64,000 bases of DNA from an uncultured bacterium (GCA_963784355.1 CAWAQU010000007.1:32001-96000), one strand, 5' to 3'; numbered from the stretch's first letter, positions 8,858 to 36,155 are shown. Made by a program: numbers and translations. Notes: a model not told the origin generated them from the letters alone.

Positions 8858-9068
8858 AATATAATATTGATGTAGGGCCCTTAGGTGAGCCTTAATTTAG
8901 GCTTAAATTAACTGGAATTTTTAAGCTTTTGTCAAGTCTAATTGCCTTTATAGATAAATATTCTAAAGTTTCGATAACAAAACAAATTATCCTAGGATTG
9001 TTTCGCCATGTACACATTCACCCTTATTGACAATCAGTCTTTTTTAGGTAAATGTAAAAATAGTTGCC

Positions 9069-21928: not shown

Positions 21929-22999
21929 CTAATTTAAATTTTCAAGTACTGACTGGGCTTCAATTTTTTTGATCTGCTCTATAACTTCGTAAATTCCTCC
22001 ATCCATGATAACAGGTAATTGATTCCAGTTTTGGTTGTATCTATGATCAGTCAATCTATCTTGAGGAAAATTATAAGTACGGATTTTTTCGCTTCGATCT
22101 GCTTTACCTACCTGTTCACGTCTTGCTGCACCTTCTTTGGCTAGCCTCTCTTGTTCATAAAAATCAAACACACGGCTGGTCAGTACTTGTAGGGCTCTGA
22201 TTTTATTTTGCTGCTGATTTCTTTCATCTTGACTCTGAGCTTCTATTCCAGTTGGTATGTGCTTTACTTTAATCGCTGAGTAGGTAGTATTTACACTTTG
22301 TCCTCCGGCACCTTGACTGGTAGAAGCTGTTACCTCCACCTCCTTCATGTCTAGTTTGAAATCATTATTACTTTCTTCAAATAATGGTAAAACCGCTACA
22401 GAAACCGTAGAAGTGTGGATCCTACCTTGTTTTTCGGTAGATGGCACTCTTTGTACTCTATGTACGCCACCTTCATATTTGAACCAACTATATGCTCCAT
22501 TACCTCTAATTTCAGCAATTAATTCTTTGTAACCGCCTAATGAATTTTCACTAAATGAAATAATTTTTAACTTAAAGCCGATTTTTTCGCAAAGATAATT
22601 ATACATGCGGACCAAGTCTGCTGCAAATAATGCGCTTTCGTCGCCACCTGCACCTGCACGGATTTCCAAGAAAATGTCGTTATCATCGTGTGGATCCTTT
22701 GGTGCTAAAAAAGTGATTAATTTATCTTCAACTATGGCAAGTTCAGCCTGCTTTTCTTCATTATCAAGCTTTGTAAGTTCTGATAGTTCTTGATCAAGGC
22801 TAGAATCATTTAGTAAATCTTCATTTTCACTAATAGATTTTTCAAGGTGCTTAATCTTTTGGGCCAATACAAATTGGGATTGAAGAGTTTTTTGCTGTTT
22901 ACCCAGTTTCATTAGATCCTCAGTGGCATTAATACCGGAAAGGGTTTCATTTATTTCTTCATACTGTTGAATGATCTGTTCTATAGGTAGCTTAGACAT
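21929..22999 (-). CDS. prfA: Peptide chain release factor 1
   Basis: RAGAGGDES, VHRVQRVPSTE (PxT motif), GAGGQSVN, RSEKIRTYNFPQ. Confidence 0.96.
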   Translation of the reverse strand: MSKLPIEQIIQQYEEINETLSGINATEDLMKLGKQQKTLQSQFVLAQKIKHLEKSISENEDLLNDSSLDQELSELTKLDNEEKQAELAIVEDKLITFLAPKDPHDDNDIFLEIRAGAGGDESALFAADLVRMYNYLCEKIGFKLKIISFSENSLGGYKELIAEIRGNGAYSWFKYEGGVHRVQRVPSTEKQGRIHTSTVSVAVLPLFEESNNDFKLDMKEVEVTASTSQGAGGQSVNTTYSAIKVKHIPTGIEAQSQDERNQQQNKIRALQVLTSRVFDFYEQERLAKEGAARREQVGKADRSEKIRTYNFPQDRLTDHRYNQNWNQLPVIMDGGIYEVIEQIKKIEAQSVLENLN

Positions 23000-23678: not shown

Positions 23679-24032
23679 ATGTTGCAGCGTATTTTATTTC
23701 TTTTGTTTGGGGCAAGTTTTGTGGGCTTAGCTTGCGTGTTAGTCTTTTTGAATCCTTTTCAAAGTGGATTATACATAATTTTATTTTTACTGGGAAGTGT
23801 ATTGTTTTTATTTAGTGCCGCTAATTTGCTAATTTTTTGGTGGATCTATTCGATAAAAAAAGTTATTTTGACAATAGTTCAGGTGAATCGTATTGTGTAC
23901 CAAGGCTTGATATCGAGTCTAGTAGCTATATTTTATTTGATAATGTATCAGACTGGCGCATTAAATATCTGGTCCGGTGCAATAGTTTTTATTGTTTATT
24001 TTTTGTACGAACTATGGATAAATTCCGGTTAA
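23679..24032 (+). CDS. Hypothetical membrane protein (4 TM)
   Basis: Four hydrophobic segments; start uncertain (track start 23610 lies in a TTGACA box). Confidence 0.65.
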   Translation: MLQRILFLLFGASFVGLACVLVFLNPFQSGLYIILFLLGSVLFLFSAANLLIFWWIYSIKKVILTIVQVNRIVYQGLISSLVAIFYLIMYQTGALNIWSGAIVFIVYFLYELWINSG

Positions 24033-24035
24033 CTT

Positions 24036-24713
24036 ATGGCTTTAAATCAACCAAATCAATATCAACCAAATCCCTTTAATTATGTCTATCAAACACGGGA
24101 ACGCCGTAGGCCCATAAATTTACTCGAGTGGGCTCTTATATGTGTATCGATTCTAAGTCTTGTAGGAATTTTTTGGTGGGGATTTAATAATCAAGAAACA
24201 AAAAATAGAGATAATCAAAGATTGCATGATATAAATCAGATTACCATTGCTTTAGAAGAGTTTTATAAAAATAGTAATATTGTTCCAAGTAATAGATCAT
24301 ATCCAAAAGCAAAATGTTCTGAATCATTAAATGAAGTGGACTACGAAGATACTCTAAGAAGAGCTTTAACCGGAAATGCAAAGGAGCTTGATACGCACGT
24401 GTATATAAATCCAAATGATTTTCCTATAGATCAGTGGGGATCGTACTCAGTTACTTTTGGAGAAAGGGTAGTACCATATAGATGTACTGAAAAATTGAGT
24501 TTAAAATCTTCACCTGAAGGAGTAACAAAAATCTACAATGACAGTTTTCCAAGCTGCAATTTTAGTTCAACCAAAAGGTACTATAAGTGTTATATTTACA
24601 CTAGTAGTAATAATGGTGATACTTTTAAAATTGGGTACTATCAGGAATCATCGAACAATTTTATTATTTATAAAAAGTTTAGGGATGATAAAATTCAAGT
24701 TGAAATCAATTGA
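24036..24713 (+). CDS. Type IV pilin/pseudopilin-like protein
   Basis: NLLEWALICVSILSLVGIF hydrophobic helix with Glu, then RDNQRLHDINQITIALEEFY; paired Cys; lacks canonical G|F cleavage site. Confidence 0.65.
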   Translation: MALNQPNQYQPNPFNYVYQTRERRRPINLLEWALICVSILSLVGIFWWGFNNQETKNRDNQRLHDINQITIALEEFYKNSNIVPSNRSYPKAKCSESLNEVDYEDTLRRALTGNAKELDTHVYINPNDFPIDQWGSYSVTFGERVVPYRCTEKLSLKSSPEGVTKIYNDSFPSCNFSSTKRYYKCYIYTSSNNGDTFKIGYYQESSNNFIIYKKFRDDKIQVEIN

Positions 24714-24734
24714 TAATACAATAATTTATTAATC

Positions 24735-25454
24735 TTAAGCAGATTGGTTTGTAATTTCAGGCTTTAAACTTATGATAGCAAGGAACATGGCCGCTTCAAA
24801 CAATAAACCAATTATTAAAACAAATATAAACCAGCTTAAGATATCTTGAGAACCGAATAATGCAGTAAGTACAATAATTGCAAAATATATCTCTTTTCTC
24901 TTTGACTTTAAAGTACTGGCTGAAACAATTTTCATTTTAATAAGACCAAATACAACTGTAGGTATTTGAAAAAACAAAATTGTGAATAGTGCGAGTGAAA
25001 AAACAAAGTTAGAGTATTCTGTTGAGGTAATTAAAAAACTAGTATTTTTGGGAGCGAAGTTGATTAAAAAGTCAAATGTGCTAGGAATTAAAGAAAAATA
25101 TGCATAGACCAGTGCTATAACTGTAAGGATTAGAGTACTTCCGCTATAATAATAAATTAACTTTTTTTCTTTTTCATTAAGTGCTTGAGCAATATAGCCC
25201 CAAAATATACTTACCAGAATAGGTAGAGTTATAATAGCGCCGGACAATACAACAACTTTAATCACAAAATTAAAGCTATCAGCCGGGGACAAAAAGTGAA
25301 GACTAAGGCCTTTACTTCTTAATGGCATTGTAAAAATATCTATCAGTCTATCAGTATTAAAAGCAGCTATTAGGCTACCAAGTCCCCAAACTATAGCTAT
25401 TTTTATTATTATTTTTTTTAAATCGTTTATATGCTCCCAAATATTTTCAGCCAT
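24735..25454 (-). CDS. tatC: Twin-arginine translocase subunit TatC
   Basis: IWEHINDLKK, LSPADSF, ALNEKEKK, FQIP, LFE motifs; 6 TM. Confidence 0.88.
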   Translation of the reverse strand: MAENIWEHINDLKKIIIKIAIVWGLGSLIAAFNTDRLIDIFTMPLRSKGLSLHFLSPADSFNFVIKVVVLSGAIITLPILVSIFWGYIAQALNEKEKKLIYYYSGSTLILTVIALVYAYFSLIPSTFDFLINFAPKNTSFLITSTEYSNFVFSLALFTILFFQIPTVVFGLIKMKIVSASTLKSKRKEIYFAIIVLTALFGSQDILSWFIFVLIIGLLFEAAMFLAIISLKPEITNQSA

Positions 25455-25569
25455 ATTGTGGTTATAATGTTAAATCACCTTTTCTAACTATCACGGTTTA
25501 CTTATGTTTACTACAGTAATAATTTTGAAAGAAATACTCAATGATGCAATTAAGCAAAATACTTACAAT

Positions 25570-25650
25570 CCAGGATGTTACCTTAGGGGCTTTGATGTCT
25601 ATACCACTATCTTGATATACATATCTGTAGCCCCCAAATGGTTCACCTGG
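25570..25650 (-). ncRNA. Long imperfect RNA hairpin between fibre gene and tatC
   Basis: Nested pairs CCAGG/CCTGG, ACC/GGT, GGGGGCT/AGCCCCT, GAT/ATC, ATATCA/TGGTAT; GC-rich against the background. Confidence 0.5.
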
Positions 25651-25669
25651 AATAATAAATAAGTTGAAT

Positions 25670-28069
25670 TTATAATCCTGCTTTATCCAGACGACCCTGT
25701 AATGCTTCAATAACCTGGTCTTGTTTTTCTAACAAACTCTTCTGTTCCTTTACTGCCTCGACTAAAGCTCCAACCAAACCATTGTAATTAACTGATTTAG
25801 TTTGATCTTTATCAGCTGCTGTTTTAACTGCTTCTGGAAATATTTTTTCTACGTCTTGAGCTAAGAGTCCGATTTGAGTAGATGTATCTTCACCATGATT
25901 TTCAGGATTTTTCCAGGTGTAGGTTACTCCTTTAAGAGAAGCAATTTTATCTAAGGCTGAAGTAATTGGTTTGATATTAGTTTTTAGCCTTTCATCAGAG
26001 TTTGGAGTAATAGTTCCAGTAGCTAAAATATTACCTACTACGTGAAGTTTTTCGGTAGGAGCCTCAGTTCCAATACCAAATTTTCCATCTGGAGTAATTG
26101 TAGGTTGCGCGCGCAGGTAAATAATACGAGAAGACGTTCCCCAGCTTACTCCTGGTCCTAACTCTGGTGCGTGCCAAGCTACATATAAGGGTTGTCCTGC
26201 TGAATTCCAACCTGTTGCATATTTTGTAATTGCAATATCTCTTACTGAATTAGCAGCTTTTTGGAATTTACACCATACCTCATAAAGGTTAGATGTATTG
26301 GTTTGACCATTACAAGTAACAATATCTTCAGTAGATTCAAACTCACAACCATAAAAGGTGATTGATCCACCCCAAGCTGTAAACAATGCAGCTTTATCCG
26401 ATCTAGGAGATAGGGGGCGAGTATCGTTAGCACTTTCAACTACCTTCACACTTTCTAAATTAAAATATGCATAATCCCTTACCAGTACTCTAGAAACCTC
26501 CCGGTAAATTCCATTAAGGGAGCCAACATATTGTTGCATATCAAATGTGTAAGTTGCATTCTTAGTCATTTTGATTACAGGCATGGATCCACTTTGCTCA
26601 GGATTTTTCCTAATGTACAAATATTGTTCAGGAGATAAATCAACAAAAGTATTCCAGGTGTACTCAGAATTAGTTTTTAAATACACTGTTAGTATAGCAT
26701 ATTTTTTTAAAAGCTTATTGATTTGTAAACCGAGATCCGTAGCTGTATCGTTAATAATTACTAATTTACTAGCCCATCTGGATTTGAGAAAATCAGCACT
26801 ACTATTTAGGCTAACAATAGGAGCTCTTCCTTTAGTAATACTTGCCAAGTTGCCTATATCAATATTTGCTTCACTGCTGATACCAATAGGGCTCATGATG
26901 CCACTGTATGAAGTTTGGGAACTATAGGAATTACTATCATCCCATATCGTCAGACCGTTATTTGATTTATATATCTTATATTGGGTACCGGCTGGAATAT
27001 TTTGCTGGTAATTAAAAGGAGAATCAACGATAACTTCAGTATCAGAGTTAATACTCACAATACGGCGCGTGGAATAGATTACCCCTGCATCAGTAACTTT
27101 TGCTCCAGGACTAGTAAACCATGGAGTAGTATCTGTGTTTAATAGTACTTCTATAGTATCACCAATTTCTACTTCGCTTAAAAATTTAGTACCTGCACCA
27201 ATGACTTTTTCCCATGATGTACTTACTGTACCAGAGACGTTAGGATTACTTTCAAGATTGAATTCCAATCCACTATTAGATACAGGCTCTCCAACAGATA
27301 AATTACCTGATGCACCAACAACAACTTTGCTTTTACCGTCAAATCCTTCAAATCCAGCAACAATGCCGGTATAGGTAAAGGCTCTGGCAGTACTATATCC
27401 ATTTGGAATATATTCATAGGCTGAGTTAGTTACATTTAAATTCCACTCACTTTGTTTATCGGATCCGTAATTACCAATCAAGCCGCGTGACATTTGCCCT
27501 GTACTTCCATTTAAGGAAATAAGTTGGGTAGTTTGATTAGAGATTACTATTAAATAACCAGCTTTTAATTGATTAAGATTATTGCCACTGATGTCTGCAC
27601 CACTTGTAGTAATTGTACCAGGTCCTGTAGCTTTGGTGCCATAAAATGGTTGATTAATAAAAGCTTCAGTGTTACTAATCACTTTTGTAATAATTCTAGA
27701 CTGTCCACCAGAGGTGATTACTGCTCCAGGCTGCAATTCTTCAACAAACTTTGTGCCCGTACCAATCAGTTTGATATCATCAGAAGTAACTTGTCCTGTT
27801 CCAGTACGCTGGTTTTGGATACTTTCCGCACGTTTTGTTGAATCAAAATTAACCCACTGGGTTCCGCTCCAGCGTTCAATCTTTCCAGTGTCGGAATTTA
27901 TTCCAGTAAGACCTTCGTTATCGGCTCCAAGTCCGGTTGGCCTATTAGTAATTGACCAGATGTTGATACCACCTTTATTTGGATCACTAATTTGTTTTAA
28001 ATAATCGTTTAAGATTTGTCCCCAGTTTCCATTGTCTTGACCGGGAATTGGTAAGCGTTTTGTTGGCAT
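25670..28069 (-). CDS. Tail-fibre-like adhesin with C-terminal intramolecular chaperone (peptidase S74)
   Basis: N-terminal RLPIPGQDNGNWGQILNDYL; repeated GxGTKF beta modules; FGIGTEAPTEKLHVVGNI; SDERLK...GLLAQDVE...VNYNGL S74 signature; no signal peptide. Confidence 0.85.
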   Translation of the reverse strand: MPTKRLPIPGQDNGNWGQILNDYLKQISDPNKGGINIWSITNRPTGLGADNEGLTGINSDTGKIERWSGTQWVNFDSTKRAESIQNQRTGTGQVTSDDIKLIGTGTKFVEELQPGAVITSGGQSRIITKVISNTEAFINQPFYGTKATGPGTITTSGADISGNNLNQLKAGYLIVISNQTTQLISLNGSTGQMSRGLIGNYGSDKQSEWNLNVTNSAYEYIPNGYSTARAFTYTGIVAGFEGFDGKSKVVVGASGNLSVGEPVSNSGLEFNLESNPNVSGTVSTSWEKVIGAGTKFLSEVEIGDTIEVLLNTDTTPWFTSPGAKVTDAGVIYSTRRIVSINSDTEVIVDSPFNYQQNIPAGTQYKIYKSNNGLTIWDDSNSYSSQTSYSGIMSPIGISSEANIDIGNLASITKGRAPIVSLNSSADFLKSRWASKLVIINDTATDLGLQINKLLKKYAILTVYLKTNSEYTWNTFVDLSPEQYLYIRKNPEQSGSMPVIKMTKNATYTFDMQQYVGSLNGIYREVSRVLVRDYAYFNLESVKVVESANDTRPLSPRSDKAALFTAWGGSITFYGCEFESTEDIVTCNGQTNTSNLYEVWCKFQKAANSVRDIAITKYATGWNSAGQPLYVAWHAPELGPGVSWGTSSRIIYLRAQPTITPDGKFGIGTEAPTEKLHVVGNILATGTITPNSDERLKTNIKPITSALDKIASLKGVTYTWKNPENHGEDTSTQIGLLAQDVEKIFPEAVKTAADKDQTKSVNYNGLVGALVEAVKEQKSLLEKQDQVIEALQGRLDKAGL

Positions 28070-28102
28070 ATATAATATATATTTTTTATATTTGTTTAAT
28101 TA

Positions 28103-28131
28103 ATTATATACTACTTTTTTAAAGTGTGCAA
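28103..28131 (-). promoter_or_regulatory. Sigma70 promoter for fibre gene
   Basis: TTGCAC-17 nt-TATAAT on minus strand. Confidence 0.7.
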
Positions 28132-28728
28132 GTCATAATTAAGATTTTATATTAATAACAAATTTTAAAGCATTTAGTCTTCGATAAAGCCCGTAATACC
28201 TATATAAATAGCAAATAGATACAGGGCTAATTAGATAAATTTTATCTTAAACATAGTATACAAAATATTTCAACTTTGCTAAATTTTACATAAAATATTG
28301 TTATATTCTATTGAATAAATTTGATATTTAATTACAGATATAATTTTTGTAATTTCTTTTTACCTTATGTAAAATATTGTTATTTACCGGATGAATTTTT
28401 TAGGTATACTCGTCTAATAACAATTCCTGCCTCGATAGGGTTTTAGTTTGATTTAGGAATGGTTTATCCGCAGCTGAGTTTGACTAACAGCGATTGTACA
28501 TTTGGCCGATTTATTAGTAGTTCAGAATACGTGGTTGCTTGCAACGAGGTTAAAACTGTAAGTTTTTGTTTCCAAAGCTTGCTTTGGTGCTTTGATTAAA
28601 CTTATTATGTATTCGCTACCTTTTTATAAGAAAGATATTAAAATAAAATGACAGAGTGACCGTTGCAAAAGCTAAAGTTGTCTTTTATGCTAAATTTAAA
28701 ATTACAAATTACAAGCTAGACAAAAGAA

Positions 28729-28749
28729 TACAACCCACGTGGGGTTGTA
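28729..28749 (-). terminator. Terminator of the tatA/surface-protein operon
   Basis: TACAACCC-acgtg-GGGTTGTA hairpin with adjacent U-rich tail on minus strand. Confidence 0.7.
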
Positions 28750-28810
28750 CTTGCTTTACCTTATAACGATTTGTTATAAATTAGAAGATTATAAAAGAAT
28801 GAAAAAACTA

Positions 28811-29569
28811 TTACTTTATCTTTATATTGTTTACGCTTTTGTTCCTATTTTTTGACACAAAGAACATTATTCCAAGAACGCCTATAAATAACAAACCTAA
28901 TAATAATATTGACCCTCCTCCTGTCCTCACCGTATCTAATATGGGTTGAATTTTGGCAACATTAACTGTGCTAGCAGTATTTACTAACTCACCATTACCT
29001 AATTTAGCTTTTACAGGTATGGATTGTCCTGCAGTACTTCCTGTACTTACGTTAGTACATACAATATTGTTATTCTCAAGTGTGCAGTTATTACTTAAAT
29101 TTGCGTCACCTATTGATATTCTTAATGGATTGGATGGATCAAGTGTTTTACCTGCGGGTAATTGACCTGTACAAGTAGTCGTTGTATTTACTACTAAATT
29201 ACTACCACAAGTGAAAACTAGAGTTGAAAGGTCCGCATCAGTTATGTAAACATTGCAGTCTCTATTATAAAAACTTTGATTATATTGGCCACAGCCATAA
29301 CCAGAAATTACAGATTGATTGGCACCTGCATTTTCAAGTTGCTTGTAATAAAAAAATCCGCCAAAAGCTCCTAATATAATTGTTAGTAAAATGAAAAAGG
29401 AAACAGAAGTTTTATTCTTTTGCCAATATTGTTTCATTTTTGGAGTTAAGCTTAGGGCCTTTTGTTTCAACATATCAACAAAGAGTAAGGAAGTTGAATC
29501 TTTTTTTGACTTATTTTGGTTGCTTTTTAGCGATTTTTTTAAATCTCGCTTTGGATTTTCACTTTTCAT
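28811..29569 (-). CDS. Surface protein with N-terminal TM, SGYGxxxY motif, Cys-containing Ig-like domain and sortase-like C-terminal signal
   Basis: SGYGCGQYNQSFY after TM; C-terminus TVRTGG + hydrophobic helix + KNRNK. Confidence 0.7.
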   Translation of the reverse strand: MKSENPKRDLKKSLKSNQNKSKKDSTSLLFVDMLKQKALSLTPKMKQYWQKNKTSVSFFILLTIILGAFGGFFYYKQLENAGANQSVISGYGCGQYNQSFYNRDCNVYITDADLSTLVFTCGSNLVVNTTTTCTGQLPAGKTLDPSNPLRISIGDANLSNNCTLENNNIVCTNVSTGSTAGQSIPVKAKLGNGELVNTASTVNVAKIQPILDTVRTGGGSILLLGLLFIGVLGIMFFVSKNRNKSVNNIKIK

Positions 29570-29652
29570 AATAATTGCTTTTGTTTTTATTAACTATAAT
29601 AATCTTTAATTAATTTTAGTTGTGTATTTGATGAAGTGTTAAAAACTAAATA

Positions 29653-29847
29653 TTAATTTTTATCTTTATTTATAGTTTTCTCAGTATTACTGCCTAATGA
29701 TTCTTGAGTATCAGCAAGCTCTTTTTTAAAAGATTTAAATGCTTTACCTAAGCTTCCTGCTGTTTCTGGTAATTTATCTTTACCAAAGAATACTATAGCT
29801 AGAAAGCCTATAATTAGTAGTTCTGGTATACTTGGTCTTGGGAACAT
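29653..29847 (-). CDS. tatA: TatA/TatE family translocase subunit (copy 2)
   Basis: ELLIIGFLAIVFFGKDKLPETAGSLGKAFKSFKKE; ATG 29847 matches copy 1. Confidence 0.9.
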   Translation of the reverse strand: MFPRPSIPELLIIGFLAIVFFGKDKLPETAGSLGKAFKSFKKELADTQESLGSNTEKTINKDKN

Positions 29848-29870
29848 AATAAACACTTAATTAAATTATT

Positions 29871-30041
29871 TTATATCCCATATGGTGTTTGTCCATAACC
29901 GGAAGTTGATTTAGATTTATCTTTTTCAAGATTTTTACTAAATAGTGTATTGATACCGCCGGTAGCAAAAACTACAAAGAACCCGGTTAAGATTTTCAAA
30001 AAACTTCTTCTGCTTATTTTTTTTGTTTGTGTGCTTGACAT
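29871..30041 (-). CDS. Twin-arginine signal micro-protein (56 aa, not in ORF track)
   Basis: MSSTQTKKISRRSFLKILTGFFVVFATGGINTLFSKNLEKDKSKSTSGYGQTPYGI; perfect S-R-R-x-F-L-K motif plus h-region, between two tatA genes. Confidence 0.88.
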   Translation of the reverse strand: MSSTQTKKISRRSFLKILTGFFVVFATGGINTLFSKNLEKDKSKSTSGYGQTPYGI

Positions 30042-30070
30042 AAATATTTGTTTTTTGTTTGTGTGCTTGA
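30019..30070. repeat. 20-bp direct repeat at the start of the twin-arginine micro-gene
   Basis: TTTTTTGTTTGTGTGCTTGA at 30019-30038 and 30051-30070. Confidence 0.85.
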
Positions 30071-30077
30071 TTTATTA

Positions 30078-30317
30078 TTACTTAGCTAACTCTTTTGCAG
30101 AGTCTGCATTAATGCCTGCTTCTACTTTACTGTTATTTGATTTAGCTTCATTGATTTGATGTCCTAATGATTCTTGAGTATCAGCAAGCTCTTTTTTAAA
30201 AGATTTAAATGCTTTACCTAAGCTTCCTGCTGTTTCTGGTAATTTATCTTTACCAAAGAATACTATAGCTAGAAAGCCTATAATTAGTAGTTCTGGTATA
30301 CTTGGTCTTGGGAACAT
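30078..30317 (-). CDS. tatA: TatA/TatE family translocase subunit (copy 1)
   Basis: Same TM-FG-amphipathic helix pattern with a longer C-tail. Confidence 0.9.
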   Translation of the reverse strand: MFPRPSIPELLIIGFLAIVFFGKDKLPETAGSLGKAFKSFKKELADTQESLGHQINEAKSNNSKVEAGINADSAKELAK

Positions 30318-30369
30318 AATTGTATATTGTTATTTGTTTTTGTTAGTGTAAATTTACACCTATAGTAAT

Positions 30370-30398
30370 ATTATAACTCAGTTTTTTTGTTTATGCAA
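30370..30398 (-). promoter_or_regulatory. Sigma70 promoter of the tatA operon
   Basis: TTGCAT-17 nt-TATAAT on minus strand. Confidence 0.7.
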
Positions 30399-30400
30399 GT

Positions 30401-33400
30401 TTACTGTATTTTTACAGTCTTCTCTTGAGAAAAGCTTATACTATCAAGAGTTTTCAGAGATTGTATTGTGGATTTAGGGGATTTGAACTCTCCTTTATTT
30501 ATAACTCTTGCATAAAATACGATTGGTCCCTTACTCTCTTTACCAATACAAAAGCTTGTTTTTTGATTGTCGGTACTATATGGGTACCAGACTTCTTTGC
30601 TGTAAACCCATGCATCTCCGGGTGTTTTTGAGGTAGTTTTTAAGCCTGCAGGTAAATAGATAGAGGCTTCATAACAACTATTGTCGATTTTAGATTGATC
30701 TGCGACATAGTTAGCCTCTACTTTTACTAAATCAGCATCATTTAATGAATTTGTTTCCTTATCATTTTGATAAAATTTTAGATCCAAATTTAAATCTTTA
30801 TTGTTGGTAATGTCTTTGATTGGAGTTTGATAATTTGTAACAATACCTAATTGTCCGCTAATGACTTTTAAATCTAATTTAGCTAGGTCCTGTGAGTTTA
30901 TTTCAATGCTATAACTCTGGTTGTTTTCCAATTTTTTGGAGATATTTTGTTCGTTTTGTTTGAAATTAAATTCAACTTTTTGAGGTTTTTGATAATTTAG
31001 AATTGATTCAATGGTTTCAAGCTCAAGTCCGTAATAAATATTAGTTTTGGGTTGGTTAGCTAAATAGTATCGATATAGGTTTTTTGACTGATCCTCATTT
31101 AATTTTGCTCCAAGCAGGCTTTCAAGAAGAGTGTAATAGCTAATTTCATCAGGACTTTCTCCTATTTTTAAGCTAATGGACCTATCTTCCTTGATTTGAT
31201 ATTTGTTGAGTAAATCAGTGTAAATTTTTCTTGCGGCTTCTTTGTTTTCAGCTTCTATAAAAGCCAGAGCAGTAAATAGTTGCTCTTTAGGTGAAAGGTC
31301 TACAATGCCGGCGACTTCGTTGATTTGATTTAAAGCGTTGTCTTTTAGTTTACTTAAACCATACAATGCAATAATTTTACGTTCTCTAGACTCGTTTGGA
31401 TCAGTAATTACTTTATTTAAATAACTTTTTAGGGTTTCATTTTCAAATTTGTTTTTGCCTATTCCAATTGCATAGACACTTGTTTCCAGGTCTGGTGAGC
31501 TGTAAGGATAAATGGCCCAACCATTTGAAGGATTTTGGTAAAGTGTGTAGTCATTATTTGAGTTAATTGCGGCACTTTGGGTAAAGTATCGGTTTAAAAA
31601 CTCAGTAGAAATGTCTCTAGCAAGTTTTTGATCTAACCTATCGCCTGACTGATTTTGCAACTCGGTAAGTCTTTGGTAATATTCACTGCTTGTTTGGTTT
31701 TGGAAAGTTAGAGCAAGTTTTGTATTGTCAGAAACTTTGAATTTTTGGAGTTCTTCGGGGGTAAAGTACTTGACTTCAGTTTTAGTAATTTGGGGGCTTA
31801 AAACATTTATTTCTCTGGTTAGATTATCTACTTGATCACCTGATTTCGCTGCAATATTGAATTTGTGTTTGCCGATCGGTAAGTTTGGTAGCTCAAAATC
31901 TACCGGGTTGCTGCCTTTTGATTCAACTATCTTGTTTTTAATGTTTAAACTCTCGGAATTTATCGTGAAATTTACAGACTGATCTGCAGGTAAATTTGTA
32001 CCAAAACCCCTTAGCTTGATAGTCGGTTTGTCATTTTCATAGTAAATATCATTGATTACGGCTGTTGCAAAAAATGGCTGTTTAACATTGATATTAATTT
32101 TCCCAGAATCTGCTTCTAGTTTTTCTGTAATTGCCTCATAAGTAATTCTCCAAGATGTGAGATTATCTGGAAGTTGAAATTCCAACTTAGCTTTTCCTTG
32201 ATTGTCAGCTTTGACTTGTTTAAAGATTGCAGTGTCCAGAAATTTGTCTCTAAGGCTAGTTCCGCCACCGTTACCTTGACCACCATCTCCAGTTTGGCTC
32301 ATAAATACTTTGTGGGAAGCGTGTACAAACTCTAGTCCGGAATATAAATGCTTATATATATCCTCAAGTATATTTGGTTCATTTGGAGAATACTGCATGA
32401 TAGCTTCGTCTACAACTGAGATATTGACATTTGCTTCAATAGGATTATTTTCTTGGTTTTTTACGTCAATATCAAGCTTAACTGTATCTTTTGGTTTGTA
32501 TTCTTTTTTGTCTGGAGTTACGCTGATTTTTAATTTGCGGCTTTCTTTCTCAAATTCTAAGTTCCCAACCCCCGTTATGTTAAAGGTATTACCATCGAAA
32601 TAAACTCCAAGAAGGTTCATATTTGGTACAGAGTTTTCTTCAAATTTTAGTTCAAAATTAGGGTTGTTTTGTAATTTGTAGGATTTTTGACCATTTTGTA
32701 AATAACTTACCAAAAATTGATTTTGTTTGGTTTCAATTAACTCAGGTCCTTCAATCGGTTGTATTTTAAATTTTGCAGTTTCACCAATTTTATATTTTTT
32801 CTCTTCCATTTTTAGTGTGTAAATCATGTCTTTGGCTGTATAACCGCTTCCAGAATTTACTGTGCCGTATAAACCTCTTTTGAATTCAATTGGGCTGCCA
32901 TCTTTGTCTGTGGTCTCAATATTAATGTCAAAATTGTGTGTTGGATCGACCGGGAAATCAAGATTTATAAGTCCCTCTGTATTTGTACTTGGGCTGAAAC
33001 TTTTTTGGCCTACATACACACGGTTGTAACTATAATTATTTACGGTTTTTTTACTGATCAAGTCATAATATTGGCCGCTAACATAGCGCTCATATTTATA
33101 TTCAAAAAGTGTGATTTTTACTTTTTTATTAGCAACTGACACTCCTTTGAAATCTTTATCATCTTTCGCTGTGCCGTTATTTATTTTGCTTAAATCAATT
33201 TCATTAAGTCCGATTTTTATTGTGCCCTTATTTTGTTTAATTTCGGAATTTATATCCACGTAAGTTTTATTATCAAAGTAAAGCACGTTTTGGTATAAAG
33301 CACTATCAAACTCCTCAGAAAGTGCGGGGGTAATAGTTATGTAAGCTTGATTTATTCCATCATTACTCTGATCAGATTTTTTTACTAAGGGTACTTGAAA

Positions 33401-35461
33401 ATTAAATTTGCCCTCTTGGTTTGTTTTTATAATGGGAGTTTGATTATTCCCATAACTATAGCTAATATCAAGATTGTTTACTGGTGTTTCTTCAAAAAAA
33501 CTGGCTTGTCCTCGAATAGTGGCAGATTCACCGGCAAAATAAGCTTTCTTTTCGGGTCCAGCAGTTATTTTATACGAAGGGGCAATAAAGTTTTCTACTC
33601 TAAAGTAATTGGATTTAATGAGGTTATTTTGGGAATCAAAAATGTCTAGAATGTAATTTCCGGTGGTTGCATTATCGATTATAAAGTCAGAATTAAATAT
33701 ATTCTGTTCAGTTTTCAAGTTTTTGCTGATAATTTCAACTTTTTTATAACTCATGACGGAATAGTCTTGTTTACTAATCACAGCCTTGATTTCCTCTGAA
33801 TTTTTTGCGTTTACTCGGTTTTTAAGTACGCCCCAAAATTGAATTTTGTCGCTAGGCCTATAAATTGATCTGTCTGAATATAGATGACTCCAATAATCTT
33901 GGCTTTGATCGGTTGAGTAAATATTGAGGTTTTCAGTTCTTGTTTTAATTAAAATAAGTCTTTGATCCTCTGAAGTAATATTATAAAAATATATACTATC
34001 TTGAATTTTGGGAAAAATAGCTATACCCTGATCATTAGATGTAAAAAACTTATCTGAATTTGCCACTTGGATTTTTGCATTTGCTGCGGGAGATTTGGTA
34101 GTTAGATTTTGTAACCAGATTAGATTTTCAGTTTTAGTTTCCTGTATAAAACCGACTAAATTGGTAATCTGCAAAATTGACTGTACTTTTTTGCCGTTTG
34201 ATTCCACCTCAAGTAGATAAATACCTTTTTCTAATCCTTTTGTTGTATCAATATATTGTTCACTAGGTGTTGTTTTGGTAATAGTGTAATTTTGTGAACT
34301 TACTTTGTTTAGTTCTGTTGTATTTGGATAGAAAGTAGTAGGTTGGAAATTTTGCCAGTTATTGAAATTGCTGATGTAATTATTTAAGGTTGTGTTTATT
34401 TGTTCTTCAGACTTGAAATTGTAGATACTAACAGTGGTTTTAAGGTCTTCAAAGGTACTAAAAACCGGTACCACGATTTGCTCTGCAGGTTTGTATTCAA
34501 TAAATGTATTAATTAAACTAAATTCTTTATACTCCGGATCATCATTAATTGTTTGAAACTGAAATAAATAATCTTGAGCTAATTTTCCTGAATTATCTTT
34601 AGTAGTCAGCCCTTGTTTGATTTTTACAGTGTATACTGTATTTTTCTCCAGATTTTTTGGAATGAAAACTGCTACACGGCCATTTCTTTTAAAAGTGCCT
34701 TCAACTTTTGGTGTAATCTCAAAAAACTGATCTATGTCATTGTAACTATCTGTGTTAAATACCACTTCAATGCCTGTGTTTGCCGGTACACCATTTACTT
34801 TATTTGTAGGTGTAGTACCAAGTATTCTAAATTCATCTTTTACTTGATAGGCCCAACTCAAATTTTTAGCGCTTGTTACGTCGTTTTTGTCAGGGATTAC
34901 CTTTAATTCAAACTTAACTACTTCATTGGCAGTTGGTTTTTGAGTTAGATTTAATTCATAGTTAGTATCACTATTTTTTTTCAGTTCATAGGGTAGGGAA
35001 GGAGTAAGTTTCAAATTATCTTTAATCTGTTTTTCAGTTATGCTGTTTGCTGAAGTTATTGTATATGTAGAGTTAGAATCAACTCCCAAGTTTGTTTTTG
35101 TATTTGGTTTGATTTCGATCTCTTGAGCGCTGGCGTTGATTGGAGAGAAAGGATTAATAATATTAGCTAAGTTGTTTGTAATATTTTTACCTGCTCCGGC
35201 TTGACTAAGCACTAAGGCAATTAATATTCCGACTACAACTAGACTACTTGCAAATCCTAAACCTAACACAATAATTCTATTTGAGAAGAGGGATTTCAAA
35301 TTTTCTCGGGTTTTTGCAAATATATTTTGGGTTTTCAGATTAGTTTTTACAAATTGATTTAGACTGCTTTTCTTAGATTTTAGATAAGATGTATTTTTTT
35401 CAAATACAGGTTGCAAGGATTCTTCCTGTAAGTCTTCTCTATTTGGTAAAAATTTCGACAT
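30401..35461 (-). CDS. Membrane-anchored alpha-2-macroglobulin family protein with N-terminal Ig-like (Big_5/SbsA-like) domains
   Basis: SDRSIYRPSDKI (MG2), YKPKDTV, SVVDEA, LRDKFLDTA, LPDNLTSWRI, YARVINKGEF. Confidence 0.9.
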   Translation of the reverse strand: MSKFLPNREDLQEESLQPVFEKNTSYLKSKKSSLNQFVKTNLKTQNIFAKTRENLKSLFSNRIIVLGLGFASSLVVVGILIALVLSQAGAGKNITNNLANIINPFSPINASAQEIEIKPNTKTNLGVDSNSTYTITSANSITEKQIKDNLKLTPSLPYELKKNSDTNYELNLTQKPTANEVVKFELKVIPDKNDVTSAKNLSWAYQVKDEFRILGTTPTNKVNGVPANTGIEVVFNTDSYNDIDQFFEITPKVEGTFKRNGRVAVFIPKNLEKNTVYTVKIKQGLTTKDNSGKLAQDYLFQFQTINDDPEYKEFSLINTFIEYKPAEQIVVPVFSTFEDLKTTVSIYNFKSEEQINTTLNNYISNFNNWQNFQPTTFYPNTTELNKVSSQNYTITKTTPSEQYIDTTKGLEKGIYLLEVESNGKKVQSILQITNLVGFIQETKTENLIWLQNLTTKSPAANAKIQVANSDKFFTSNDQGIAIFPKIQDSIYFYNITSEDQRLILIKTRTENLNIYSTDQSQDYWSHLYSDRSIYRPSDKIQFWGVLKNRVNAKNSEEIKAVISKQDYSVMSYKKVEIISKNLKTEQNIFNSDFIIDNATTGNYILDIFDSQNNLIKSNYFRVENFIAPSYKITAGPEKKAYFAGESATIRGQASFFEETPVNNLDISYSYGNNQTPIIKTNQEGKFNFQVPLVKKSDQSNDGINQAYITITPALSEEFDSALYQNVLYFDNKTYVDINSEIKQNKGTIKIGLNEIDLSKINNGTAKDDKDFKGVSVANKKVKITLFEYKYERYVSGQYYDLISKKTVNNYSYNRVYVGQKSFSPSTNTEGLINLDFPVDPTHNFDINIETTDKDGSPIEFKRGLYGTVNSGSGYTAKDMIYTLKMEEKKYKIGETAKFKIQPIEGPELIETKQNQFLVSYLQNGQKSYKLQNNPNFELKFEENSVPNMNLLGVYFDGNTFNITGVGNLEFEKESRKLKISVTPDKKEYKPKDTVKLDIDVKNQENNPIEANVNISVVDEAIMQYSPNEPNILEDIYKHLYSGLEFVHASHKVFMSQTGDGGQGNGGGTSLRDKFLDTAIFKQVKADNQGKAKLEFQLPDNLTSWRITYEAITEKLEADSGKININVKQPFFATAVINDIYYENDKPTIKLRGFGTNLPADQSVNFTINSESLNIKNKIVESKGSNPVDFELPNLPIGKHKFNIAAKSGDQVDNLTREINVLSPQITKTEVKYFTPEELQKFKVSDNTKLALTFQNQTSSEYYQRLTELQNQSGDRLDQKLARDISTEFLNRYFTQSAAINSNNDYTLYQNPSNGWAIYPYSSPDLETSVYAIGIGKNKFENETLKSYLNKVITDPNESRERKIIALYGLSKLKDNALNQINEVAGIVDLSPKEQLFTALAFIEAENKEAARKIYTDLLNKYQIKEDRSISLKIGESPDEISYYTLLESLLGAKLNEDQSKNLYRYYLANQPKTNIYYGLELETIESILNYQKPQKVEFNFKQNEQNISKKLENNQSYSIEINSQDLAKLDLKVISGQLGIVTNYQTPIKDITNNKDLNLDLKFYQNDKETNSLNDADLVKVEANYVADQSKIDNSCYEASIYLPAGLKTTSKTPGDAWVYSKEVWYPYSTDNQKTSFCIGKESKGPIVFYARVINKGEFKSPKSTIQSLKTLDSISFSQEKTVKIQ

Positions 35462-35474
35462 ATTTGAGAGATAA

Positions 35475-36155
35475 TTAAATTTTTTGTTGGTTTTTGGTTA
35501 TATTTGTAGATTCAGTAGAATTAAAAAATGATGGTTTTGCTGGTAAAGTTGTATTTTGCTCAGTAATATAAACTTCTGTTTCGCTTGAATTTGTTGTGTT
35601 TTCGGACTGTTTAAAACTAATCCATAATTCCGTACAGCCTGACTTTAGCTTAGAAAATGATCTTTTTAGTTTTTGGCGCACTGTTGCTGATTTTAAATTG
35701 TATTTTATACCGATTTGGGTACTGTTTTTATTATCAATAATCGATTCTGCAACAATATTATAATCTTCACCTGTAAGTTGTTTTTTACAACATTCTATTA
35801 GCTGTTGAATTTTGGCTTCATAATGCTCGCTATATTTATTTTCATTTTCTTCAACACTTTCAAAATGTGCGTAGTCTTGAGTCTGAAAATCTGTATTTTC
35901 TTCAAGTATTACAGTAAAAGGTGAGCGATTTTTGTTATCTATAAATTTGTATTGTTGATTTTTAGCAGTTTGCCAGATAAATCCCTTTGGATTCTCCACA
36001 TTTTCGGCTAGGAAAAAAGCGGTAAGAACATTGGAAGTAAGGTCTTCTACATCTTGCTGATTGTTTAGGCGCCTGTAGAAATATCCATAAACTAAAGGAT
36101 ACCAATAATCCCAAGCCTCACTGATATCTTTTTTTGAAATTTCAGAGTCGAGCAT
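35475..36155 (-). CDS. ECF-type RNA polymerase sigma factor
   Basis: VYGYFYRRL..QQDVEDLTSNV, FIWQTAKN (region 2); QIG...SATVRQKLKRSFSKL (region 4). Confidence 0.85.
   Translation of the reverse strand: MLDSEISKKDISEAWDYWYPLVYGYFYRRLNNQQDVEDLTSNVLTAFFLAENVENPKGFIWQTAKNQQYKFIDNKNRSPFTVILEENTDFQTQDYAHFESVEENENKYSEHYEAKIQQLIECCKKQLTGEDYNIVAESIIDNKNSTQIGIKYNLKSATVRQKLKRSFSKLKSGCTELWISFKQSENTTNSSETEVYITEQNTTLPAKPSFFNSTESTNITKNQQKI

What the first reader, a model, noticed from the sequence alone, without database searches (positions are those of the whole stretch)
24735..30398. Candidate dedicated Tat 'hitch-hiker' export and surface-display system for phage-like trimeric fibres
Seen: co-oriented cluster promoter-tatA-[56-aa RR micro-protein]-tatA-[sortase-type surface protein]-terminator-promoter-[799-aa tail-fibre-like protein with S74 chaperone, no signal peptide]-hairpin-tatC, with no phage structural or integrase genes nearby. 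Known: Tat exports folded proteins and can carry signal-less partners bound to an RR-bearing subunit; S74 chaperones fold fibre trimers and then self-cleave; TatA+TatC is a sufficient minimal translocase in monoderms. Inference: the fibre trimerises in the cytoplasm, binds the micro-protein (signal peptide plus short tail only), is exported by this Tat, and is displayed as a host-attachment adhesin. I know of no described system with this make-up.
Basis: partly seen in the sequence, partly recalled or inferred. Interest (0 to 1): 0.92.

Follow-up and report, generated by a model that had tools for sequence, protein, structure and literature searches.

The report
Tat export module for phage-like fibres
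A tiny-genome bacterium keeps a folded-protein export machine beside a 56-residue protein that is little more than an export signal and a signal-less phage-like fibre, and this trio recurs in many related genomes, which points to an undescribed way of putting fibres on the cell surface.

Summary
On the minus strand lie tatA, a 56-aa SRRSFLK micro-protein, a second tatA, an LPXTG-like surface protein, a 799-aa signal-less protein with a C-terminal S74 chaperone domain, and tatC.

The micro-protein belongs to an unannotated family: 44 representative clusters, a Tat-like signal, and a C-terminal GYGxxGYG. The first ~75 residues of the fibre (RLPxPGxDxGxWG) form a conserved N-domain that heads variable proteins resembling phage tail fibres and tailspikes.

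In a 401-genome sample of the phylum, outside the window's family:
- 9 of 377 genomes have the micro-protein.
- The same 9 have the N-domain proteins.
- All 9 are among the 13 genomes with TatC.

In those genomes the genes cluster as tatA-tatC-micro-Ndom, and some overlap. No other gene family recurs in these clusters. I found no description of this in print.

What is shown is a conserved TatAC + micro-protein + N-domain-protein module. What is inferred is hitch-hiker export, with the micro-protein as a signal supplied in trans (about 0.5).

Points against: the RR pair is not conserved (4 of 40 members are KK), some N-domain proteins are huge, and I obtained no evidence of binding. I rate it a new variant of Tat co-translocation, of high interest.

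The parts
30078..30317 (-). tatA1 (79 aa)
   Evidence: PF02416 at 7.7e-14. TIGR01411 at 51.9 bits, just under its 53.9 cut-off.
29871..30041 (-). Micro-protein (56 aa). It has a polar N-terminus, SRRSFLK, a ~19-residue uncharged stretch, a polar linker, and a C-terminal GYGQTPYGI.
   Evidence: ORF. It belongs to a family with 44 representative clusters. Pfam TAT_signal scores 15.2 bits, below the cut-off, for this member; 12 of 40 family members match at E<=0.1.
29653..29856 (-). tatA2 (67 aa from the GTG, 64 aa from the ATG at 29847). Its first ~51 residues are identical to tatA1.
   Evidence: PF02416 at 3.2e-14; repeat D1; sequence.
30163..30320 (.). Copy 1 of the 158-nt perfect direct repeat (5' part of tatA1).
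   Evidence: D1, 100% identity, spacing 470 nt.
29693..29850 (.). Copy 2 of the 158-nt perfect direct repeat (5' part of tatA2).
28811..29569 (-). 252-aa surface protein. It has an N-terminal signal or anchor, then a GYGCGQY motif, a Cys-containing domain, and a C-terminal VRTGG + TM + basic tail (LPXTG-like).
   Evidence: Homologous domains follow the micro gene in G007 (437 aa, LPRTG) and G004 (851 aa, LSRTG).
28727..28751 (-). Terminator-like hairpin after the 252-aa gene.
   Evidence: 10 pairs, 4 of them G-C, then a T-rich tail.
28070..28810 (.). 740-nt spacer with no ORF of 40 aa or more on the minus strand and no Rfam match.
25670..28069 (-). 799-aa fibre-like protein with no signal peptide.
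   Evidence: Only the S74 part has sequence relatives.
27830..28069 (-). N-domain of the fibre (residues 1-80, RLPIPGQDNGNWGQILN...). This is the conserved head of a multi-copy protein family.
   Evidence: The AlphaFold2 model has pLDDT 85.9. It is 44% identical to the N-terminus of a Microcoleus phage protein.
25823..25999 (-). Peptidase_S74 intramolecular chaperone domain (residues 691-749). It starts with a Ser691...Lys696 motif.
   Evidence: PF13884 at 5.6e-22; place confirmed. Matches PDB 7dc3 at 1.7e-9 and 6f45 at 3.3e-7. Tail-fibre PHROGs match down to 3.2e-33. Motif position.
25455..25669 (-). 215-nt spacer that folds into a long hairpin.
   Evidence: -52 kcal/mol, z = -3.51.
24735..25454 (-). 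tatC (239 aa), the only one in the genome.
   Evidence: PF00902 at 1.7e-39; single match in the genome.

Best explanation
The locus is one (rearranged) copy of a conserved four-part module of Patescibacteria:
1. A minimal TatA/TatC translocase.
2. A ~50-75-aa micro-protein. It consists of a Tat-type signal ([RK][RK]xF[LI]K, a Gly/Ser-rich hydrophobic stretch, then a basic residue) plus a short tail with a Tyr-Gly motif.
3. One to many signal-less proteins that share an N-terminal domain related to phage tail fibres. Behind it they carry variable fibre or beta-helix (tailspike-like) bodies. In this window the body is a fibre with an S74 self-cleaving chaperone.
4. In this family, an LPXTG-like surface protein that carries the same Tyr-Gly motif at its mature N-terminus.

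Most likely mechanism (inferred): the fibre folds and trimerises in the cytoplasm. Its conserved N-domain binds the micro-protein. TatC recognises the micro-protein's signal, and the complex is exported by hitch-hiking. The micro-protein (uncleaved, N-in/C-out) and/or the Tyr-Gly-tagged wall protein then hold the fibre on the surface, where it binds or degrades the envelope of a host cell.

Shown: the genes, their families, and their co-occurrence and clustering.
Inferred: binding, Tat dependence, topology, surface display, and the role in host contact.
For: Co-occurrence in a 401-genome sample of the phylum. Outside the window's family (377 genomes):
- TatC in 13.
- Full-length micro-protein in 9.
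- N-domain in 9.
- These are the same nine genomes (G102, G130, G151, G187, G247, G261, G288, G326, G386). They are 99-100% complete, fall in 7 families, and all have TatC.

Co-occurrence among the 25 relatives in the window's family:
- All three components in 7.
- None in 12, including the same-genus genome.
- The six mixed cases are 64-86% complete.

Clustering:
- In 7 of those 9 genomes a micro gene lies within 400 nt of tatC. In an eighth (G102) the order is micro-Ndom-Ndom-tatA-tatC.
- Of 79 loci chosen only for an N-domain gene across all species genomes, 14 have tatC and 15 have a micro gene within 10 kb. A random gene in a ~1-Mb genome would do so about 2% of the time.
- In L125 and L176 the micro stop overlaps the N-domain start. 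In L121, L156, L133 and L094 the gap is 67-87 nt.
- An all-against-all comparison of 26 loci found no other recurrent family. It found only TatC, TatA, micro and N-domain, plus the p252-like protein in 3 loci.

Own genome:
- One tatC and one S74/N-domain gene.
- The micro-protein is the only canonical S-R-R-x-F-L-K start, apart from one on an odd-GC contig.

N-domain proteins:
- The domain starts within the first 6 residues in 27 of the 28 relatives' ORFs collected. The 28th only through an upstream alternative start. So none has an N-terminal signal peptide.
- They carry Beta_helix or pectate-lyase-like domains. These are extracellular-type activities.

Precedent: hitch-hiking on a signal-bearing partner is established for Tat. 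I saw the PaoABC abstract (PMC4273604) in the listing. The hydrogenase and DmsAB cases are recalled.
Against: - The basic pair is not conserved. By my reading of the 40 aligned members it is RR in 18, KR in 13, RK in 5 and KK in 4. The Saccharibacteria-type members are mostly RK, with one RQ. KK normally blocks Tat export (established knowledge).
- Tat-like RRxF[LI]K starts also occur on long proteins in the TatC-negative genomes G057 and G125. The motif alone therefore does not prove Tat targeting in this phylum.
- Some N-domain proteins are very long: 1849 aa in L097, and an open frame of 2722 aa in G386. As trimers they would far exceed known Tat cargo (general knowledge).
- 61 of 79 N-domain loci have no tat or micro gene within 10 kb.
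- N-domain proteins exist without the micro-protein in Gordonia and in a Promineifilaceae genome, and in a phage.
- Mixed genomes exist in the family: G013 and G015 have TatC + N-domain but no micro found; G023 and G025 have TatC + micro but no N-domain; G011 and G012 have N-domain but no TatC. All six are incomplete.
- Relatives are not independent samples.
- No expression, localisation or interaction data are available.
- The window's own gene order, with two tatA genes sharing a perfect 158-nt repeat, could not be checked against reads.
Confidence: 0.5

Rival explanations
1. The micro-protein is itself the Tat cargo. It would be a short membrane-anchored or secreted Tyr-Gly peptide that serves outside the cell as a docking tag or assembly factor. 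The N-domain proteins would leave the cell by another route (unknown secretion, vesicles, or lysis) and meet the tag only outside.
For: - The same Tyr-Gly motif stands at the mature N-terminus of Sec-signal proteins beside the tat genes in 8 loci. This shows that the motif works outside the cell.
- The micro-protein's tail is only ~20 residues.
- Very long N-domain proteins are hard to fit through Tat.
Against: - A 20-residue tail needs no folded-protein translocase, yet the micro-protein is found only in TatC-positive genomes (9 of 9 outside the family).
- No other export route was seen to co-vary with the N-domain proteins. No other family recurs in the clusters.
- N-domain proteins have no signal peptide.
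Confidence: 0.22
2. The micro-protein is an accessory or regulatory part of this TatAC lineage. It would be a signal mimic that occupies or primes TatC. The link to N-domain proteins would be indirect, for example through shared inheritance of a horizontally moving cassette.
For: - The basic pair varies, including KK.
- The micro gene is most often directly after tatC.
- TatCs of genomes with the module fall on one side of the TatC tree. Those of the four genomes without it fall on the other side. The TatCs of two non-Patescibacteria MAGs nest among Patescibacteria ones, which suggests transfer of the cassette (midpoint root, long branches).
Against: - 4 of 13 TatC-positive genomes outside the family lack the micro-protein, so Tat works without it. 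Its presence tracks the N-domain proteins exactly (9 of 9).
- Second micro copies sit next to N-domain genes rather than tatC (G247, G386, G326).
Confidence: 0.12
3. The fibre lies between tatA and tatC in this window by accident of rearrangement or mis-assembly. The N-domain proteins would be remnants of prophage tail genes with no cellular role.
For: - In relatives tatA and tatC are adjacent.
- A perfect 158-nt repeat flanks the micro gene.
- The N-domain is related to phage proteins.
- The genome is a 13-contig, 81%-complete assembly.
Against: - The association does not rest on this window. It recurs in many genomes and several gene orders.
- There are up to 25 intact copies per ~1-Mb genome, in tandem arrays.
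- No phage structural or integrase genes lie nearby.
- The open frames are intact.
Confidence: 0.06

Closest known systems
Tat hitch-hiker co-translocation (hydrogenase small/large subunits, DmsAB, PaoABC)
   Same: A signal-less folded partner would be exported bound to a subunit that carries the twin-arginine signal, and the genes lie together. I saw the PaoABC abstract in the listing. The other cases are recalled.
   Different: In the known cases the signal-bearing subunit is a real enzyme subunit with a cofactor. Here it would be almost only a signal plus a ~20-residue tail. It would serve a whole family of variable, phage-derived fibre and tailspike proteins through one shared N-domain. 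The basic pair is also often not RR.
Dedicated TatA-TatC pairs encoded with their substrate in monoderms (Bacillus subtilis phoD-tatAd-tatCd; recalled)
   Same: A minimal TatAC translocase is encoded in one cluster with what it is thought to export. Duplicated tatA genes also occur.
   Different: PhoD carries its own signal. Here the large protein has none, and a separate micro-protein carries the signal.
Small Tat-signal proteins: NCBIfam TIGR02811 'formate dehydrogenase region TAT target', and the [FeFe]-hydrogenase small subunit
   Same: These are very small proteins dominated by a Tat signal and encoded beside a larger partner. TIGR02811 gives a weak match (E 0.0031, 17.8 bits against a 48.45 cut-off). 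The protein-atlas look-alikes include Fe_hyd_SSU and Rieske TAT-signal clusters (leads only).
   Different: The micro-protein does not reach the family cut-off. Its conserved C-terminal motif and its gene neighbours are different.
Phage tail fibres and tailspikes with a C-terminal S74 intramolecular chaperone (endosialidase, phage T5 L-shaped fibre, MYRF)
   Same: The S74 domain has its Ser...Lys motif. Relatives have beta-helix bodies. The N-domain resembles the N-termini of phage tail-fibre and minor-tail proteins.
   Different: The gene is in a cellular genome among housekeeping genes, with no virion genes nearby. Some relatives have up to 25 paralogues. It is linked to tat genes, whereas phage fibres need no export.
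Tat-inserted membrane proteins with an uncleaved signal anchor or tail anchor (Rieske proteins; tail-anchored Tat substrates, PMC10924467, abstract start seen)
   Same: The N-terminal Tat-type signal has no clear AxA cleavage site, so it could remain as an N-in/C-out anchor.
   Different: Those proteins carry a folded cofactor domain outside the membrane. Here only a short Tyr-Gly tail would be outside.

Membership tests
TatC (PF00902) | Match to the family profile over its whole length | tested here: met
   1.7e-39, profile positions 1-205 of 208. TIGR00945 scores 106.9 bits, below its 132.7 equivalog cut-off. It is the only copy in the genome.
TatA/E (PF02416) | Match to the family profile (N-terminal TM plus amphipathic helix) | tested here: met
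   7.7e-14 and 3.2e-14 for the two genes.
Tat signal peptide (micro-protein) | S/T-R-R-x-F-L-K consensus, followed by a moderately hydrophobic stretch and a basic residue | tested here: met
   The window protein has SRRSFLK, then 19 uncharged residues, then K. The consensus itself is established knowledge.
Tat signal peptide (micro-protein) | Curated profile score (PF10518, TIGR01409) | tested here: inconclusive
   PF10518 scores 15.2 bits against a 22.7 cut-off; 12 of 40 family members match at E<=0.1. The TIGR01409 genome search found nothing in G000.
Tat signal peptide (micro-protein) | Near-invariant twin arginine across the family | tested here: not met
   RR 18, KR 13, RK 5, KK 4 of 40 (my reading). 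Distant members are mostly RK, with one RQ.
Tat signal peptide (micro-protein) | Export depends on TatC | not testable with these tools
   There is genomic linkage only.
Tat hitch-hiker pair | Physical complex between the signal-bearing and the signal-less partner before export | not testable with these tools
   No usable result was obtained (see Tried and rejected). This needs a pull-down or structure.
Peptidase S74 intramolecular chaperone | Profile match at the C-terminus | tested here: met
   PF13884 at 5.6e-22, profile positions 1-58 of 58. PDB relatives are 7dc3 and 6f45.
Peptidase S74 intramolecular chaperone | Ser-Lys pair at the cleavage site | tested here: met
   Ser691-Asp-Glu-Arg-Leu-Lys696 stands at the start of the domain. 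That this pair is the catalytic dyad is recalled from the endosialidase literature. Cleavage itself was not tested.
Sortase substrate (252-aa protein) | LPXTG motif + hydrophobic segment + basic tail at the C-terminus | tested here: inconclusive
   The window protein has VRTGG + TM + SKNRNK. Relatives have LPRTG (G007) and LSRTG (G004).
Sortase substrate (252-aa protein) | A sortase encoded in the genome | tested here: inconclusive
   The only PF04203 match is a fragment at a contig end, 23.9 bits against a 26.6 cut-off. The genome is 81% complete.
Prophage or phage tail module | Virion, integrase or other phage genes next to the fibre gene | tested here: not met
   The neighbours are a ParA-like ATPase, RF-1, EF-P, a tRNA synthetase, an A2M-like protein and a sigma factor. 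The micro-protein has no match in 50,697 phage records.

The most novel reading that the evidence does not exclude
This would be a new secretion logic: an adaptor-mediated Tat pathway. A free-standing protein consisting of little more than a signal peptide would act in trans as the export tag, and perhaps also the membrane anchor. Its cargo would be a whole, rapidly diversifying family of domesticated phage receptor-binding proteins (fibres and depolymerase-like tailspikes, up to 25 per ~1-Mb genome). All of them would be recognised through one shared N-terminal domain and a Tyr-Gly docking motif. Episymbiotic Patescibacteria would use it to seize or breach host cells, and it would occasionally pass to other phyla.
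Probability: 0.4. Interest if true: 0.92.

Novelty: new variant of a known kind. Interest (0 to 1): 0.85.

Why it matters
Why a few Patescibacteria keep a Tat system was unexplained. They have almost no cofactor enzymes, and only 24 of 401 sampled genomes have TatC. How these episymbionts recognise hosts is also largely unknown.

This module gives Tat a candidate job and names a candidate family of host-contact proteins borrowed from phages. If the micro-protein really works as a signal in trans, it extends what the Tat pathway is known to do. It would also offer a very small portable tag for exporting folded proteins.

The module is defined by three simple sequence signatures, so it can be searched for and tested directly.

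Tried and rejected
**Complex prediction.** I submitted the N-domain alignment A4 with the micro-protein alignment A3. The verdict was 'no answer' (score 0.00 against a mark of 0.32; the partner's fold was uncertain). This is neither for nor against binding.

**Sequencing runs.** Only one soil-metagenome run held 0.17 of the sampled words. Laying three runs gave a single 179-nt contig on 29571-29749 and two 23-24-nt scraps. The 158-nt repeat and the gene order therefore could not be checked.

**Alternative genetic code.** NCBI labels a relative's protein 'candidate division SR1', so I tested code 25.
- The ORFs of the locus are the same under both codes.
- TGA ends 39 of 630 long ORFs, and read-through after it is short: median 5 codons, with 1 of 39 reaching 50 or more.
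- No tRNA with anticodon UCA was found.
- RF2 is present above its cut-off.
- I kept code 11.

**Fold search with the N-domain model.** Against the PDB there were 0 matches at E<=0.001. The top weak rows are trimerisation domains and phage hyaluronidase or tailspikes, which is not significant. Against BFVD there were 0 matches at E<=0.001. The best is 2.9e-3, and the top rows are mostly phage tail-fibre or minor-tail proteins. I used this only as a consistent lead.

**Other searches that gave little.**
- Rfam on 24000-31000: nothing.
- TIGR01409 search of G000 and four complete genomes with the module: one match over the cut-off, in G386. It also missed the window's own micro-protein, so its silence is weak evidence.
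- Protein atlas: leads only.
- Full-length fibre search: 8 hits including itself, matching the S74 part only.
- Micro-protein in the phylum of the Abditibacteriaceae MAG: 1 of 151 genomes (that MAG itself), plus one signal-only match that I dropped.

**Rows dropped.**
- the G032, G057 and G125 matches cover only model positions 1-44/46 inside ORFs of 323, 629 and 333 aa.
- the G001 match (E 0.0067) lies inside a 740-aa frame.
- L166 and L122 duplicate L095 and L096.
- TatC pieces under 200 aa and identical sequences were left out; 36 rows were kept.

**Literature.** Searches found no paper that links Tat with tail-fibre-like proteins or describes such micro-proteins.
- I read passages of PMC9166423 (TatA + TatC noted in some CPR classes), PMC6031116 (one Saccharibacterium with a Tat system and four TAT-motif genes, two of unknown function) and PMC12173739.
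- Term look-ups found no mention of Patescibacteria or CPR in PMC13673990, and no TatA, TatC, twin-arginine or tail-fibre terms in PMC10633639 or PMC8406219.
- I did not ask for supplementary files. Gene tables there could mention these genes.

Full report
**1. What is in the window**

The window is contig C7:32001-96000 of a 1.14-Mb, 13-contig, 33%-GC genome rated 81% complete. Between 24735 and 30398 all genes run on the minus strand:
- tatA1, 30078-30317.
- A 56-aa ORF, 29871-30041.
- tatA2, 29653-29856.
- A 252-aa membrane protein, 28811-29569.
- A 740-nt gap.
- A 799-aa ORF, 25670-28069.
- A 215-nt gap.
- tatC, 24735-25454.

Pfam confirms both TatA genes (7.7e-14 and 3.2e-14), TatC (1.7e-39), and a Peptidase_S74 domain at residues 691-749 of the long protein (5.6e-22). 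The 56-aa and 252-aa proteins match no family.

The S74 region also matches solved structures. These are the MYRF autoproteolytic domain (7dc3, 1.7e-9) and the phage T5 tail-fibre tip (6f45, 3.3e-7). It matches many tail-fibre PHROGs as well. A Ser691...Lys696 motif opens the domain.

The rest of the 799-aa protein has no sequence relatives in 5.8 billion proteins.

The 56-aa protein reads: polar N-terminus, SRRSFLK, 19 uncharged residues, Lys, a polar linker, then GYGQTPYGI at the C-terminus.

The neighbouring genes are housekeeping, with no phage genes among them. They are a ParA-like ATPase, RF-1, EF-P, a class I tRNA synthetase, a 1686-aa alpha-2-macroglobulin-like protein and a sigma factor.

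The genome has one tatC and one S74 gene.

Additions to the observation:
- The two tatA genes share a perfect 158-nt repeat and differ only in their tails.
- The hairpin before tatC is real (z = -3.5).
- The terminator-like hairpin after the 252-aa gene is present.
- The promoter calls have no statistical support (45 sites against 54.4 expected).

**2. Genetic code**

One relative's protein is labelled 'candidate division SR1' by NCBI, so I checked whether TGA is read as glycine.
- The ORFs of the locus are the same under code 25.
- TGA ends 39 of 630 long ORFs.
- Read-through after TGA is short.
- RF2 is present above its curated cut-off.

Code 11 stands.

**3. The micro-protein is a family**

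In relatives tatA and tatC are adjacent. A small ORF of the same build follows tatC directly in G007, G025, G008 and G004.

A profile of four members found 44 representative clusters (E<=0.001) among 1.84 billion representatives. All are 49-106 aa. Where a source names them, the name is 'hypothetical protein'.

The alignment of 40 members shows:
- Invariant: the Phe of xF[LI]K and the final Tyr-Gly.
- Nearly invariant: the two glycines of G[YF]G.
- The basic pair varies: RR 18, KR 13, RK 5, KK 4 (my count).

Pfam's TAT_signal model matches 12 of 40 members at E<=0.1.

**4. The head of the fibre is a family too**

Residues 1-80 of the 799-aa protein match many ORFs in 11 of the 25 relatives in the family. 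There are 25 matches in G015, 19 in G014 and 12 in G008, often in tandem.

The domain starts within the first 6 residues in 27 of 28 collected ORFs. The 28th only through an upstream alternative start. None therefore has a signal peptide.

The most conserved part is RLPxPGxDxGxWGxxLN.

An AlphaFold2 model of the domain is confident (pLDDT 85.9). It has an extended N-terminal arm, one helix and a small sheet.

Relation to phage proteins:
- The domain is 44% identical to the N-terminus of a 382-aa protein of a Microcoleus phage, which is encoded next to a 1723-aa protein.
- Its weak structural look-alikes are phage tail-fibre and minor-tail proteins. The best E-value is 2.9e-3, and none is at or below 0.001.

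Behind the head, relatives carry beta-helix or pectate-lyase-like bodies. Five of 10 scanned proteins match Beta_helix or the pectate-lyase-like family, one matches only a weak repeat family (DUF5907), and 4 match no family. None of the 10 has S74. They also match tailspike PHROGs.

**5. Co-occurrence**

Three searches used the same 401-genome sample of the phylum.

| Component | Genomes with it |
|---|---|
| TatC | 24 |
| Micro-protein (small full-length ORF) | 19 |
| N-domain | 20 |

For the micro-protein, three further matches were dropped. They cover only the signal part of long proteins, in TatC-negative genomes.

Outside the window's family (377 genomes):
- The micro-protein and the N-domain occur in exactly the same nine genomes.
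- All nine are 99-100% complete and spread over seven families.
- All nine are among the 13 TatC-positive genomes.
- The other 364 TatC-negative genomes have neither component.

Among the 25 relatives in the family:
- 7 have all three components.
- 12 have none, including the same-genus genome.
- Six are mixed: G013 and G015 have no micro found; G023 and G025 have no N-domain; G012 has no TatC; G011 has the N-domain only. All six are 64-86% complete.

Relatives are not independent samples. Even so, the pattern needs repeated joint gain or loss.

**6. Clustering**

Gene maps show several orders:
- tatA-tatC-micro in G008, G025, G386, G187, G261 and G326.
- The same three genes with the micro gene upstream of tatA in G288, and on the opposite strand in G151.
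- Ndom-Ndom-tatA-tatC-micro-[LPXTG protein] in G007.
- micro-Ndom-Ndom-tatA-tatC in G102.
- micro / tatC-tatA / micro-Ndom-Ndom in G247.
- tatA-tatC-micro-Ndom with overlapping stop and start in a Levyibacteriota MAG (L125) and an Abditibacteriaceae MAG (L176).

An all-against-all comparison of the ORFs of 26 loci found no further recurrent family. The only addition was the p252-like protein, in three loci of the window's family.

A scan of one genome per species for the N-domain motif confirmed 269 stretches. The best 80 (79 loci) are mostly Saccharibacteria. They also include other Patescibacteria and a few MAGs of other phyla. Of the 79 loci, 14 have tatC within 10 kb, 15 have a micro gene, and 18 have at least one of tatA, tatC or micro.

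In the window the same parts are present in a rearranged order, with a duplicated tatA.

**7. Other substrates**

In the window's genome the micro-protein is the only ORF with a canonical S-R-R-x-F-L-K start. The one exception lies on contig C13, whose GC is 38.5%.

A TAT_signal_seq profile search of four complete genomes with the module gave one match over the cut-off. This search also missed the window's own micro-protein, so it carries little weight.

**8. A fifth, partial component**

The 252-aa protein has an LPXTG-like end: VRTGG here, LPRTG in G007 and LSRTG in G004.

Directly after its signal or anchor it carries a Tyr-Gly motif like the one that ends the micro-protein.

Sec-signal proteins with that motif at the predicted mature N-terminus lie beside the tat genes in eight loci, including L125, L176 and L183. 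This places the motif outside the cell and suggests that it is a docking site. That was not tested.

**9. TatC tree**

The tree has 36 rows, a midpoint root and several long branches.
- The TatCs of the four genomes without micro or N-domain (G029, G081, G324, G378) fall on one side. Support is 81/71; three of them group at 100/99.
- All TatCs from genomes with the module fall on the other side.
- The Abditibacteriaceae and 'Limnocylindrales' TatCs nest with a Levyibacteriota one (95/92).

This fits transfer of the cassette, or mis-binning in the case of the 1.2-Mb 'Limnocylindrales' genome. In the phylum of the Abditibacteriaceae MAG the micro-protein was found in 1 of 151 genomes, that MAG itself.

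**10. Mechanism**

Shown: a conserved module of TatA/TatC, the micro-protein and the N-domain proteins.

Inferred, and my preferred reading (about 0.5): the N-domain binds the micro-protein, and the folded fibre is exported by hitch-hiking on the micro-protein's signal. The fibre is then held on the surface by the uncleaved micro-protein or by Tyr-Gly-tagged wall proteins. The S74 chaperone and the beta-helix bodies are the kind of very stable trimers that phages fold in the cytoplasm. That gives a rationale for using a folded-protein translocase.

Against this reading:
- The basic pair is often not RR and is KK in 4 of 40 members.
- Tat-like starts occur in TatC-negative genomes of the phylum.
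- Some N-domain proteins are 1849-2722 aa long.
- N-domain proteins work without the micro-protein in phages and in Gordonia.
- I obtained no binding evidence.

The rivals are listed separately:
- The micro-protein as the only cargo and an external docking tag.
- The micro-protein as a Tat accessory.
- Accidental juxtaposition.

**11. Novelty**

Seven full-text searches and look-ups in six papers found no description of the micro-protein family. They also found no description of the N-domain family as cellular proteins, or of their link with Tat. What is in print is only that some CPR classes have TatA + TatC (PMC9166423), and that one Saccharibacterium has Tat and two unknown TAT-motif genes (PMC6031116).

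Hitch-hiking and dedicated TatAC pairs are known kinds. A signal-only escort serving a family of domesticated phage receptor-binding proteins would be a new variant.

Noticed in passing
window 30019-30038 and 30051-30070: A perfect 20-nt direct repeat duplicates the first codons of the micro-protein gene just upstream of its start, right after the tatA1 stop. Together with the 158-nt tatA repeat, this suggests recent local duplication.
   Followed up: partly
window 30401-35461 and 35475-36155 (minus strand): A 1686-aa protein with an N-terminal anchor and alpha-2-macroglobulin domains (MG2, A2M_BRD, A2M, Big_5) lies directly upstream of tatA1. A sigma-70-type factor precedes it. A sigma-factor homologue also lies about 4 kb from tatA in G008.
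   Followed up: no
whole genome G000; window 21929-22999: NCBI labels a relative 'candidate division SR1', a group known for reading TGA as Gly. This genome, however, has both RF-1 and RF2, and it uses TGA as a rare stop, in 39 of 630 long ORFs.
   Followed up: yes
G000 contig C13 (26.1 kb): Its GC is 38.5% against 32.5-34.8% for the other contigs. It carries a 96-aa ORF with a canonical Tat-type start. It may be a contaminant contig.
   Followed up: no
L025 (G029), L190 (G081), L191 (G324): The TatC-positive Patescibacteria without the module have a different layout. They have one to four tatA paralogues around tatC. Next to these lie giant Sec-signal proteins (869, 1316 and 2083 aa), two of which share a Cys...GEF[IL]YDD start. 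This may be a second, distinct use of Tat in the phylum.
   Followed up: no
L192 (G378) 8937-9188: An 83-aa ORF directly after tatC has a KRRRKFLK start and a weak micro-family score (E 0.0053), at a contig end. It may be a divergent micro-protein in a genome I counted as lacking one.
   Followed up: no
L023 (G004) 9594-10290 and 10639-10821: Both tatC and the micro gene are broken at homopolymer runs in this assembly. An intact form of the micro-protein exists in another source. These are probably sequencing errors.
   Followed up: partly
L112 (MAG labelled Limisphaerales), 35% GC: This locus carries four N-domain genes whose heads closely resemble those of the window's family, for example G008. 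The contig may be mis-binned from a Patescibacteria genome.
   Followed up: no
window 28070-28810: A 740-nt stretch between the LPXTG-like gene and the fibre gene has no ORF of 40 aa or more on the coding strand and no Rfam match. That is long for a genome this compact.
   Followed up: partly
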